From an uncultured bacterium (GTDB lineage: Bacteria; Patescibacteriota; Minisyncoccia; UBA6257; 2-01-FULL-56-20), in contig CAWJQC010000008.1 of the NCBI GenBank assembly GCA_963844965.1, positions 1-64,000 on the forward strand: a stretch of 64,000 nucleotides of DNA, written 5' to 3'. The stretch's first letter is position 1. Each line of letters opens with the position of its first letter. Below are positions 45,001 through 48,000 of this stretch, piece by piece. The position numbers were made by a program.

Positions 45001-48000
45001 TTAATTCCTCGTTCGTATATTCGGGACCGAGATAGGACCCGTGCTGGGCATCCTCTCCGCGCGCAACGCGCCGCGGCTTACCAAGATAGCCGTACCATAC
45101 TTCAAGCGCCGCTCCCAAGGCGCCGCCCGCGTCGCCCGCCGCCGGCTGAATCCAAATATCTTTGAACAATCCGGAACGCAGCAGTTTACCGTTGGCCACG
45201 CAATTCAGGGCGACGCCGCCGGCAAGGCAAAGGTAATTTTCCCCGGTTTTGCGTTTAACCTCGTGCGCCATCCGCAGCACGATCTCTTCCGTAACGTCCT
45301 GAAGTGAACGGGCGAGATCCATATCGCGCTGGGTAAGAGGCGACTCCGGTTTGCGCGGCTCTCCTCCGAAAAGCTTGTCAAACTTGCTATTAGTCATCGT
45401 GAGCCCGGCCGCATAATTGAAATAGTCCATGTTCATGCGGAACGAGCCGTCATCCTTTAGGTCAACGAGATTATCAAAAATCGCCTTTACGTACTTAGGT
45501 TCGCCGTAAGGCGCGAGACCCATAACTTTATATTCGCCGGAATTCACTTTGAAGCCGGTGTAATAGGTGAATGCCGAATACAGAAGGCCGAGCGAATGGG
45601 GAAATTGAATATCGGCCATAATGCGCAGTTTATTTTCTTCACCAACGCCGTAACTCGCCGTCGCCCACTCCCCCACGCCGTCCATCGTGAGGAATGCCGC
45701 GCGTTCGTAGGGCGACGGGTAAAAAGCGGAGGCGGCGTGCGCTTTGTGGTGCTCCGTGAAAAGTATCGGGCAGCTTGCGCCAAGCTCCTTCGTGATATAC
45801 GTCTTCATCCACAATTTCTGCTTAAGCCAGATCGGCATGGAGGCGATAAAGGACGCGATGCCGCGCGGCGCGTAAGCGAGATATGTTTCAAGCAGCCGCT
45901 CAAATTTAAGGAACGGCTTTTCGTAAAATGCGACGTAATCCAAATCCTTGGCCGTTATGCCTCCGGCCTTAAGACAATAGTCAATCGCGTGCCGCGGAAA
46001 GCGGTCGTCGTGCTTCTTGCGCGAGAAACGTTCCTCCTGAGCGGCGGCGACGATATCGCCGTCTCTCACGAGACACGCGGCGGAGTCATGGTAAAACGCC
46101 GAAATTCCTAAAATGTTCATTTTAGCAAGCGGGCTTGCTATTTTAATATACACGCATAGCGGCTCGTGGGCAATCGCTACCTTATCGCGTCAGTTAGGAT
46201 TTTATTATCAGCCCTTGGCCAGTAGGCAAGGAAAGGATGGGTACGTTTTTTTCTTTGGCGAATTTGTCAAATGCCAGGCGCTGCTCGTCAAATCCATACC
46301 ACCCATAGTCGTCCAGAAGCATAACGGCGCAGTGAGACATTTTCGGCCAGAAAAACTCCGCGGCGGCTATTTCCGGAATCATACAATTCATATCGATATG
46401 CAAGTAAGCGACGCTCCTTATTTTCGACAACGAGCTCAAAATCTCGGGAATGGCCCCTTTGACGATAACCGCGTTGGGAAACTTGGCGAATGACTTTTTA
46501 ACGAACTCGTACATATCGGGATAATGAAACTCCCTTATTCTGTCGTTTTCAGTGAGGTAGCGGGGGTCAAGGCCGTTGTAAGTATCAATCAGGTAGAACT
46601 TTCTTTTTAACCCCCCCCCCGAAATCCAAGTACTCCATAACCACGCGGCTTGTGAATCCCGTCGCCACGCCGCACTCCACAAAGTCGCCCTCAAGATTTA
46701 TTCCGTGTTTCCCCACCCAGCAGGCCACGTAAATCTCCCACTCGCATTCAGTTTTGGGATTCATTGAGTTGCTCTCCTCAATCGCCGTATCAAAAGCCCT
46801 CCTGAACCTCGTGTCTTTCCTGAACTCGCAAACCTTATCTGTAATCAACCCGCCGTCTTCGTAAGTTGGCCGCCACTTCATCAGCTTCAGCCGCCAATTC
46901 CTTAAGACGGAATAAATCGGGACGACAAACGGGTATTTCCTTTTTATTTTGTTTTTAAATTCTTTGCTTATCCGCATGGATGAATCCGAACTAAACCGTT
47001 AATCCTCGCTCGCTATTGATTGAGGATACGCCGACAATAGCGAAAGGTCAACAAATGCAAGCGTATTATTGCAAACGAAAGATTCTCTTCATGTCCCAGA
47101 GGAGCGGTTCGCGGGTGGCAATCAATATTCCAAAATAGACGGCTGCCGAGATAATAACGTTCGCGAAAAGATTCGCGGAAGCGAGGCGGAGCGCAAGCGT
47201 CGCAAACCCCATGGCCAATACGGCCGCTACGACACGCGGCAGAAACCTAATCGTTTCGAAGGGCAGCATTTTTCTTGCCTCGCGCCACATATAACCGTGG
47301 ATAATCACGAGAGCGATGATTGTCGAAACCACGCTCCCGGCGATGCCGAACGGCGGAATAAGCAGAAGGTCGAAAACGGCGTTGCTAACCGCCCCCCCTA
47401 TCATGGCAAAAATATATACCCTTTGCCGTCTGTTCGCGAGCACAAAATTGTTAACAATGCTTGCCGGATACGTGATGACAAGTGTTAAAAGCAGCAACTC
47501 GAACGATAATACCGCGGGGGCGTACTCCGCGCCGTAAAGGAGATGGATAATGGATGGGGCAATAATGATCGCTCCGACGGCAATCGGCAAAACAATCATA
47601 AGTGAAAAGGCGACGAGTTTTTCAATTAAATTTTTCAAGCGATCGCTCGCGCCCTCTTTCGCGAGGCGCCCCATCATCGTAAATGAACCGGTCACCATGA
47701 TGGCGGGGACGACGGCAAGAATGGACACCGGCCGCTGGGCGGCGGCGTAATAGCCGAGCTCCGCGGCGGAGCGGAACCAGCCGACCATAAGCGTGTCGGT
47801 ATTGACCATGAGGGTCCACATGGCGCTTGCCAGCCCAAAAGGAATCGCTTCGGCAAAAATGCCCTTCACCAATCCGAAATTAAACTGAAAGGAGCGGAGC
47901 ATGGCGCTTATGTTCTTTTTAACGATAAGGAAAACCGAAAACGTTCCGAGCGCACTCCCCGCGAGGTACATGAGCGTGAGCATATACGAAGTGCGCGAGT

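What the first reader, a model, noticed from the sequence alone, without database searches (positions are those of the whole stretch)
46585..46694. G10 homopolymer switches a TylF-like sugar O-methyltransferase OFF; G9 would turn it ON
The only break in this methyltransferase is a C10/G10 tract (46611-46620). Reading with 9 G restores a continuous TylF-family protein (..VVMEYLDFGGGLKRKFYLIDTYNGL..). Long poly-G tracts inside glycan-modifying methyltransferases and transferases are the classic slipped-strand phase-variation switches of Campylobacter, Haemophilus and Neisseria surface-glycan loci. Such tracts are very rare by chance at about 50% GC. A second tract (G9, 49870-49878) lies in-frame (ON) in a CgeB-like glycosyltransferase 3 kb away. 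The locus also carries heptose pathway genes reminiscent of phase-variable capsule loci.
Basis: partly seen in the sequence, partly recalled or inferred. Interest (0 to 1): 0.75.

Follow-up and report, generated by a model that had tools for sequence, protein, structure and literature searches.

The report
Poly-G frameshift in sugar methyltransferase gene
A run of ten G's breaks the reading frame of a sugar O-methyltransferase gene in the surface-glycan locus of an uncultured ultra-small (Parcubacteria/CPR) bacterium; it looks like a Campylobacter-style slippage on/off switch, but the assembly has many other frameshifts, so the OFF state and any switching remain unproven.

Summary
C10 (G10 on the coding minus strand) lies at 46611-46620 and is the only break in a TylF-family sugar O-methyltransferase. 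G9 or G12 restores a 260/261-aa protein with an intact fold and catalytic residues. Two more G-tracts (G9 in a Glyco_trans_1_2 glycosyltransferase, G7 in the flippase) lie in frame within 3.3 kb on the same strand. No other G/C run in the 64 kb exceeds 5. About 0.03 runs of 9 or more are expected by chance.

The host is a Parcubacteria/Paceibacterota (CPR) bacterium, and the heptose-pathway genes are real.

There are three caveats. First, the window carries eight other frameshifts at ordinary sequence (ClpB, NifS, glycan genes), and a second assembly shows the NifS one is absent there, so the assembly is indel-prone. Second, that second assembly also reads G10, but its independence is doubtful. 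Third, no tract-length variant and no conspecific genome could be found. Orthologs lack the tract and are one residue shorter than the G9 form.

Verdict: a real, slippage-prone tract and a plausible phase-variation switch. It would be a new member of a known kind in a new lineage. The OFF call and actual switching are unverified.

The parts
46611..46620 (-). Poly-G tract, G10 on the coding strand and C10 on the + strand. It codes Gly120-122 plus one extra base, which causes the frameshift.
   Evidence: The identical G10 is present in Logan contig L005.
46585..46977 (-). N-terminal reading frame of the TylF-like O-methyltransferase (130-aa product in the G10 state, ending ..DFGGGVKKKVLPD*).
   Evidence: This exact 130-aa product is on record from NCBI, ENA and Logan.
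46194..46610 (-). C-terminal part of the methyltransferase, in the other frame (LKRKFYLIDTY...GLIIKS*). It has no internal stops and keeps the conserved D195, D222 and D223.
   Evidence: tblastn with the L006 ortholog gives 78% identity.
49870..49878 (-). Second poly-G tract (G9), in frame, coding L-G-G-G-G in a variable loop of the glycosyltransferase. The segment is the same length as in homologs (GGVG, GGAR, GSSS).
49515..50549 (-). Glyco_trans_1_2 (CgeB-type) glycosyltransferase, 344 aa, intact.
   Evidence: Pfam PF13524, E=9e-24. Homologs are 71% identical and syntenic.
47392..47398 (-). Third G-tract (G7), in frame, coding I-G-G-A in the Wzx-type flippase.
   Evidence: It is identical in L005.
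47066..48544 (-). Polysaccharide flippase (Polysacc_synt), 492 aa, immediately upstream of the methyltransferase on the same strand.
   Evidence: An exact match to its product is found in Logan contig L005.

Best explanation
The tract is a genuine, slippage-prone poly-G repeat. It sits in the loop between helix A and strand 2 of the Rossmann fold of a TylF/NovP/SpnH-type, metal-dependent sugar O-methyltransferase. The gene lies in a heptose-containing surface-glycan locus of a Parcubacteria (CPR) bacterium.

Gain or loss of one G during replication shifts the reading frame. G9 and G12 give a full-length enzyme, and G10 stops translation after 130 aa. A fraction of cells would therefore add an O-methyl group to the glycan and the rest would not. 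Together with the in-frame G9 tract in the neighbouring glycosyltransferase, and perhaps the G7 tract in the flippase, this would give combinatorial surface variants, as in Campylobacter capsule loci. The consensus of the sampled population reads G10, which is OFF.

Shown: the tract, its frame consequences, the intact coding potential on both sides, the statistical excess and clustering of tracts, and the enzyme family. Inferred: that tract length actually varies in the population, that G10 is the true dominant length, and that switching is selected for.
For: The tract and its frame logic are shown.

The repaired protein is a good TylF-family member. It scores above the Pfam cut-off across the junction. 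There are 4292 homologs, the best 69-82% identical. The AF2 model has pLDDT 85.8, with the GGG residues in the loop between H108-116 and E127-131. The top structural matches are the sugar O-methyltransferases CalS11, NovP, SpnH and MycF. The conserved Asp residues align with SpnH and NovP. The 140 codons after the shift have no stops and are 78% identical to the ortholog, so the inactivation is recent or reversible.

The statistics favour a tract-specific process. About 0.027 runs of 9 or more are expected, two are observed, and they lie 3.3 kb apart on the same strand, both in glycan genes. G/C runs of 6 are absent although about 5 are expected. None of the eight other frameshifts lies at a long homopolymer or in any of the 46 A/T runs of 7-8, the G7 or the G9 tract. 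A uniform indel process at about 1.5e-4 per base would hit the 10-nt tract with probability of about 0.002, so the break is tract-specific.

The tract segment is 4 nt longer than the equivalent 6 nt in every homolog, which implies repeated length change in this lineage.

A second assembly (Logan, run ERR10755942) also reads G10 and G7, while it corrects the window's NifS frameshift.

Relatives' glycan loci also carry in-frame G/C runs of 7-8: L001 has C8 and G7, and L006 has two C7.

The known analogue is C. jejuni cj1426, a poly-G phase-variable heptose 6-O-methyltransferase with switching rates of about 2e-2 (PMC8437040).
Against: No tract-length heterogeneity was observed. Only the G10 product is on record, and the G8, G9, G11, G12 and G13 products are absent.

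No conspecific genome or contig exists in the searched collections, so variation between strains is untested.

Orthologs at 56-82% identity have no tract at this site.

The assembly is demonstrably indel-prone. It has eight other frameshifts, including ClpB and NifS, and differs by single-base indels from the Logan contigs. G10 is the longest homopolymer in the window and so the most likely site for a length miscall.

The Logan contig may derive from the same indel-prone reads. It carries its own frameshifting deletion, and two of its four differences from the window fall on the C of GATC motifs. Its G10 is therefore not clearly independent.

The tract lies at 46% of the ORF rather than near the 5' end.

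The count of GGG-GGG codon pairs (2 of 96) matches expectation from codon usage, so only the tracts of 9 or more are anomalous.
Confidence: 0.5

Rival explanations
1. Homopolymer-length miscall. The true sequence is G9 (or G12), the methyltransferase is simply intact, and the OFF state is a consensus or polishing artefact of an indel-prone (probably long-read) assembly. The long tract would still exist.
For: There are eight other frameshifts in 64 kb in conserved genes: ClpB near 9243, NifS near 13485, Bac_transf near 24638, the second flippase twice, the GT9 fusion twice, and CmcI near 51977. The NifS frameshift is absent in Logan contig L004, where the product is intact at 451 aa. The window has extra bases relative to Logan at about 12334 and 13485. 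G10 is the longest homopolymer in the window. The coding sequence downstream of the shift is perfectly preserved. Four of twelve indel or difference sites lie within 15 nt of GATC, and two lie exactly on its C, as expected for methylation-sensitive basecalling.
Against: Two assemblies built by different methods both give G10. No other long homopolymer (46 A/T runs of 7-8, the G7 or the G9 tract) causes a frameshift, so homopolymer miscalls are not the dominant error in this assembly. The G9 form would carry one more residue than all 24 aligned homologs.
Confidence: 0.3
2. Fixed pseudogene. Replication slippage inactivated the gene once. There is no adaptive switching, and the glycan locus as a whole is decaying.
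For: Five of the eight other frameshifts are also in glycan genes: Bac_transf, the second flippase (two) and the GT9-Glyco_trans_1_2 fusion (two), plus the CmcI methyltransferase. IS200-type and rve-type transposase genes lie in the region. Only the G10 state is on record.
Against: There are no stops or further indels in 140 downstream codons, and all conserved residues are retained. At least one of the other frameshifts is an assembly-specific difference rather than decay. A G10 tract is intrinsically unstable, so a permanently fixed length is unlikely. This last point rests on established knowledge of slipped-strand mispairing and was not tested here.
Confidence: 0.15
3. Recoding. The DNA is stably G10, but transcriptional slippage by RNA polymerase or ribosomal frameshifting on the G-run restores some full-length enzyme.
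For: Only general knowledge supports this. Long homopolymers cause transcript slippage, and poly(A) tracts rescue frameshifted genes in endosymbionts. Nothing specific was found here.
Against: No stimulatory structure or known slippery heptamer was examined or is evident. Known transcriptional slippage cases are mostly A/T runs. The homologs have no such site.
Confidence: 0.04

Closest known systems
Campylobacter jejuni cj1426 and the other poly-G phase-variable capsule or LOS modification genes (cj1420, cj1421, cj1422, cj1429, cj1437, cj1139, cj1144)
   Same: In both cases an intragenic poly-G tract of about 9-10 nt sits in a methyltransferase that decorates a heptose-containing surface polysaccharide. 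Several tracts cluster in one glycan locus, and frame-dependent ON/OFF states arise. In cj1426 the switching rate is about 2e-2 (PMC8437040).
   Different: The organism is an uncultured Parcubacteria (CPR) bacterium from an environmental sample, not a host-adapted Epsilonproteobacterium. Switching has not been observed here. Sequence relatedness to cj1426 was not tested. There are only two or three tracts, and only one is out of frame.
TylF / MycF / NovP / SpnH / CalS11 sugar O-methyltransferases (Pfam PF05711)
   Same: The Pfam hit is above the cut-off. The fold is a Rossmann SAM-methyltransferase fold. The aligned Asp residues match (IDMN..DDY against LDGD..DDY). The best structural matches are these enzymes.
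   Different: Identity to the solved members is only 14-19%. The gene lies in a cell-surface glycan locus rather than an antibiotic pathway. The second Asp of the DxD motif is replaced by Asn. No NCBIfam model matches.
Homopolymer-length errors in long-read metagenome-assembled genomes
   Same: The window is rich in single-base indels that split conserved genes, and it disagrees by single-base indels with a second assembly.
   Different: The other indels are not at long homopolymers. The second assembly agrees on G10.

Membership tests
TylF-family sugar O-methyltransferase (PF05711) | Profile match above the curated cut-off that spans the catalytic domain | tested here: met
   The repaired (G9) protein scores 35.5 bits against a cut-off of 23, over residues 94-245. 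Precomputed PF05711 hits are on record for the homologs.
TylF-family sugar O-methyltransferase (PF05711) | Class I SAM-methyltransferase fold with a glycine-rich SAM loop (here VECGVATG) | tested here: met
   The AF2 model has pLDDT 85.8 and alternating beta/alpha elements. Foldseek top hits are CalS11, NovP, SpnH and MycF at E=5e-9 to 1e-7.
TylF-family sugar O-methyltransferase (PF05711) | Acidic metal-binding residues (D ... DD) | tested here: met
   D195, D222 and D223 are invariant among 25 homologs. They align with the LDGD and DDY motifs of SpnH and NovP. The second Asp of DxD is Asn here.
TylF-family sugar O-methyltransferase (PF05711) | O-methylation of a sugar hydroxyl | not testable with these tools
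   This needs biochemistry. The substrate (a heptose or another sugar of the locus) is unknown.
SSR-mediated phase-variable (contingency) gene | Mononucleotide G/C tract of at least 8-9 nt inside the ORF or promoter | tested here: met
   G10 lies at 46611-46620 and G9 at 49870-49878.
SSR-mediated phase-variable (contingency) gene | A change of one repeat unit toggles between full-length and truncated product | tested here: met
   In-silico tract series G6-G13 for both genes.
SSR-mediated phase-variable (contingency) gene | Tract-length polymorphism within a population or between strains | tested here: inconclusive
   Both available assemblies read G10. Exact look-up finds only the G10 product. 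No conspecific sequence is in the genome or JGI metagenome collections. Reads could not be examined.
SSR-mediated phase-variable (contingency) gene | Tracts over-represented relative to composition and concentrated in surface-structure genes | tested here: met
   About 0.027 runs of 9 or more are expected and 2 are observed. All three runs of 7 or more lie within 3.3 kb in glycan genes, and no run longer than 5 occurs elsewhere in the 64 kb.
SSR-mediated phase-variable (contingency) gene | Orthologs in related genomes carry the tract at the same site with differing lengths | tested here: not met
   Orthologs in L001, L002, L003, L006 and L009 encode F-G-[KS]-L or similar with no G-run. These are different species (56-82% identity), so the test is weak.
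SSR-mediated phase-variable (contingency) gene | High-frequency reversible switching with a phenotypic consequence | not testable with these tools
   This needs read-level counts, culture or a reporter assay.

The most novel reading that the evidence does not exclude
Parcubacteria/CPR bacteria may use poly-G simple-sequence contingency loci to vary the decoration of their surface glycans stochastically. These organisms are ultra-small, probably episymbiotic and uncultured. The variable steps here would be an O-methyltransferase, a glycosyltransferase and possibly a flippase. This would generate 'phasotypes' comparable to Campylobacter capsule variation, presumably against phage or in host-cell attachment. 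No paper in the searched library pairs phase-variable genes with the Candidate Phyla Radiation.
Probability: 0.35. Interest if true: 0.65.

Novelty: new member of a known kind. Interest (0 to 1): 0.45.

Why it matters
If the tract really varies in length, this would extend slipped-strand phase variation of surface glycans beyond host-adapted pathogens. The new setting would be free-living or episymbiotic CPR bacteria from an environmental habitat, whose cell-surface biology is almost unknown. It would also give a concrete, read-countable marker: two tracts 3.26 kb apart that can be phased on single long reads, for studying population heterogeneity in uncultured cells. If the tract does not vary, the case is a useful caution. 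In indel-prone metagenome-assembled genomes, a frameshift at the longest homopolymer cannot be read as an OFF state.

Tried and rejected
Markov-chain simulation of run lengths timed out. It was replaced by an analytic extrapolation and codon-pair counts.

A single-sequence PDB search gave nothing. The profile search and the fold search did give hits.

NCBIfam has no model for the methyltransferase or the glycosyltransferase.

I searched for the same species elsewhere in order to compare tract lengths. Genome contigs returned only two distant 'Saccharibacteria'-labelled MAG loci. Metagenome contigs returned only the relatives already known. Exact look-up of the G8, G9, G11, G12 and G13 products of the methyltransferase and the G8, G10, G11 and G12 products of the glycosyltransferase found none.

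A paper search for the run accession ERR10755942, meant to identify the sequencing platform, gave no hits.

Look-ups of the ClpB C-fragment and the CmcI N-fragment in other assemblies found nothing. Whether Logan shares or corrects those frameshifts is therefore unknown.

Ten neighbouring window proteins were looked up, and only one (GT2, L010) is present in Logan. Coverage of that run is patchy.

I first suspected that L001's ortholog was also frameshifted, because its called product is 167 aa. I rejected this: the full frame is open and the gene caller simply chose a late start.

Rfam and tRNA scans of the window found nothing. Tandem Repeats Finder found no other candidate SSR switch.

Full report
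**1. Observation**

The + strand carries ten consecutive C at 46611-46620. The genes here are on the minus strand, so this is a G10 tract in the sense strand. It separates two overlapping minus-strand ORFs: 46585-46977 (130 aa) and 46194-46694 (166 aa).

Editing the tract in silico gave a clear pattern. G6, G9 and G12 give one continuous protein of 259, 260 and 261 aa. G7, G8, G10, G11 and G13 give products of 122-131 aa.

The G9 protein matches Pfam TylF (PF05711, 35.5 bits against a cut-off of 23) over residues 94-245, across the junction. It also matches Methyltransf_24. The tract is the only break in the gene. The 140 codons downstream of it contain no stop and are 78% identical to the closest full ortholog.

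**2. Is the tract more than chance?**

The window is 50.3% G+C. Its G/C runs number 37 of length 5, none of length 6 or 8, and one each of 7, 9 and 10. The longest G run on the + strand is 5.

The observed probability of extending a run of 4 to a run of 5 is 0.164. With it, the expected numbers per 64 kb are 6 runs of 6 or more, 1.0 of 7 or more, 0.027 of 9 or more and 0.004 of 10 or more.

The three long runs are C7 at 47392-47398, C9 at 49870-49878 and C10 at 46611-46620. They lie within 3.3 kb, all as G in the sense strand of three neighbouring glycan genes.

GGG is the rarest Gly codon (14.6%). Of 96 Gly-Gly codon pairs in 38 ORFs, only two are GGG-GGG, and both are in the two in-frame tracts. 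That pair count equals expectation, so only the length of the tracts is anomalous.

**3. What the genes are**

The repaired methyltransferase has 4292 homologs. The best are 69-70% identical over the full length, and one is 82% identical over the C-terminal two thirds.

An AlphaFold model built on 25 sequences has mean pLDDT 85.8. The tract-encoded Gly120-122 lie in the connection between helix 108-116 and strand 127-131 of the Rossmann fold.

The best structural matches are sugar O-methyltransferases: CalS11 (TDP-rhamnose 3'-O-MT), NovP, SpnH (rhamnosyl 4'-O-MT) and MycF. A profile search of PDB sequences finds SpnH (E=6e-7) and NovP. The family's LDGD and DDY acidic motifs align with IDMN and DDY here. 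D195, D222 and D223 are invariant among the homologs.

The G9 tract lies in a 344-aa Glyco_trans_1_2 (CgeB-type) glycosyltransferase. The G7 tract lies in a Wzx-type flippase.

The surrounding 40 kb is one large glycan region. It contains GT2, GT4 and GT9 enzymes, FkbM- and CmcI-type methyltransferases, a carbamoyltransferase, epimerases and RmlC. It also contains heptose genes: an RfaE-domain-I kinase, an HddA-like kinase, a GmhB phosphatase fused to a nucleotidyltransferase, a heptose 6-epimerase and a heptosyltransferase.

GroEL places the organism among Parcubacteria/Paceibacterota. The named best hits are Colwell-, Lipton-, Jorgensen- and Wolfebacteria at 76-90% identity. Syntenic loci come from groundwater metagenomes.

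**4. Comparison with orthologs**

At the methyltransferase tract, all 24 aligned homologs have F-x-x-L (for example FGKL, FGSL, FEKL). The G9 form has F-G-G-G-L. In L001 the DNA reads ttc ggc agt tta.

The tract segment is therefore 10 nt where relatives have 6. G9 is an expansion by one codon, and G10 is that plus one base. This implies several length changes in this lineage (inference).

By contrast, the G9 tract of the glycosyltransferase (LGGGG) and the G7 tract of the flippase (IGGA) occupy segments of the same length as in homologs (GGVG, GGAR or GSSS; VAGA).

No ortholog has a tract at any of the three sites. However, relatives' glycan loci do contain in-frame G/C runs of 7-8. L001 has C8 followed by A8 in the GT2 ortholog, plus a G7. 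L006 has two C7 and three runs of 6, most within the first 85 codons of their genes. L009 has a G7. L002 and L003 have none. The three independent assemblies of the L006 species are 100% identical, so they show no variation.

**5. Quality of the assembly**

The window carries eight other frameshifts in conserved genes:
- ClpB near 9243, an extra base in gatgag-t-atccac.
- NifS/IscS near 13485.
- The Bac_transf sugar transferase near 24638.
- A second flippase, twice, near 28.2 and 28.98 kb.
- The 790-aa GT9-Glyco_trans_1_2 fusion, twice, near 40573 and 38775.
- The CmcI-type methyltransferase near 51977.

None of these lies at a homopolymer of 5 or more. None of the 46 A/T runs of 7-8, nor the G7 or G9 tract, is associated with a frameshift.

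Exact-protein look-ups recovered three contigs of an independent assembly (Logan, run ERR10755942). They match the window over 11.4 kb. The contigs are L004 (window 11883-16910), L005 (45551-49696) and L010 (21650-23846).

These contigs differ from the window at four places:
- The window has an extra A at about 13485. Logan's NifS is intact at 451 aa.
- The window has an extra C at about 12334.
- The window has a C at about 49670 that Logan lacks. This site is 26 nt from the end of L005, and here the window is the in-frame version.
- There is one synonymous substitution at 47567.

L005 carries the same G10 and G7 as the window.

The window's assembly therefore contains indel errors or variants, and so does the Logan contig. 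Two of the four differences fall on the C of GATC, and 4 of 12 indel or difference sites lie within 15 nt of GATC. This hints at methylation-sensitive, indel-prone (nanopore-type) reads. I could not establish the platform.

The agreement on G10 is therefore supportive but not clearly independent.

**6. Weighing**

These points favour a tract-specific event:
- A uniform indel process at the observed rate (about 10 per 64 kb) would hit a given 10-nt segment with probability of about 0.002.
- The other long homopolymers are all in frame.
- Two assemblers agree on G10.
- The coding sequence on both sides of the tract is pristine.

These points argue against reading G10 as a biological OFF state:
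- It is the single longest homopolymer in an assembly with demonstrable indel problems.
- Only one tract length is on record. The G8, G9, G11, G12 and G13 products are absent from the 15-billion-protein collection.
- No conspecific sequence exists in the genome or JGI metagenome collections.
- Reads could not be inspected.

Whatever the modal length, a tract of nine or more G's is intrinsically prone to slipped-strand mispairing. This rests on established knowledge, for example cj1426 switching at about 2e-2 (PMC8437040). Length heterogeneity in the population is therefore likely if the tract is real.

**7. Verdict**

The best explanation (confidence about 0.5) is a genuine slippage-prone poly-G tract. 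It would make a sugar O-methyltransferase of a Parcubacteria surface-glycan locus stochastically ON or OFF, with the consensus reading OFF.

The main rival (about 0.3) is a homopolymer-length miscall, with the gene in fact intact. A fixed pseudogene (about 0.15) and recoding (below 0.05) follow.

The mechanism is a well-known kind (poly-G contingency loci of Campylobacter, Haemophilus and Neisseria), and the closest analogue is cj1426. What would be new is the lineage. I found no paper that links phase-variable genes with the Candidate Phyla Radiation.

I rate the finding a new member of a known kind, of moderate interest, and dependent on read-level confirmation.

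Noticed in passing
window ~9243, ~13485, ~24638, ~28206, ~28980, ~38775, ~40573, ~51977: There are eight frameshifts besides the tract, splitting ClpB, NifS/IscS, a Bac_transf sugar transferase, a second Wzx-type flippase (two), a 790-aa GT9-Glyco_trans_1_2 fusion (two) and a CmcI-type methyltransferase. All are at ordinary sequence, not long homopolymers. The NifS one is absent from a second assembly.
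   Followed up: yes
window 47567 and 49670 (against L005); 12334 and 13485 (against L004): The window and the Logan contigs of run ERR10755942 differ at four sites. Two of these fall exactly on the C of a GATC motif. Four of twelve indel or difference sites lie within 15 nt of GATC. This may be a signature of methylation-sensitive basecalling. The platform is unknown.
   Followed up: partly
window, whole: G/C runs of exactly 6 are absent although about 5 are expected from the run-length decay, and G/C runs of 8 are also absent. The genome appears to avoid medium-length G/C runs outside the three tracts.
   Followed up: partly
L001:3293-3308: In a 38%-GC relative from Hainich groundwater, the GT2 ortholog carries C8 directly followed by A8 (..caaCCCCCCCCgAAAAAAAAct..). 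It is in frame, codes NPPRKK, and is the same length as in homologs. A G7 lies in a neighbouring gene at 5843-5849.
   Followed up: partly
L006:1278, 3344, 7461, 11081, 15143: The closest full-locus relative (139,945-bp groundwater contig) has five G/C runs of 6-7 in 20.7 kb of glycan genes, mostly within the first 85 codons. Three independent assemblies (L006, L007, L008) are 100% identical, with no length variation.
   Followed up: partly
window 26213-26728 and 59165-60100: An IS200-type (Y1_Tnp) transposase gene and an rve-integrase IS transposase gene lie inside the glycan region.
   Followed up: no
window 43868-44302; L009:4508-4927: A small PD-(D/E)XK (PDDEXK_3) gene sits inside the glycan locus, at a different position in the window than in the relative L009. 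This suggests a mobile or selfish small gene.
   Followed up: no
window 13456-13477: A perfect 8-nt tandem repeat (AACTCGTT x 2.8) lies inside the NifS coding region next to the window-specific extra A. It is present in both assemblies.
   Followed up: partly
window 17960-19020: About 1 kb has no convincing ORF, no Rfam family and no tRNA. Its content is unexplained.
   Followed up: no
window 1-3198: A very large ORF (more than 1066 aa, running off the window) has an N-terminal signal-like segment. It is probably a surface protein and was not analysed.
   Followed up: no
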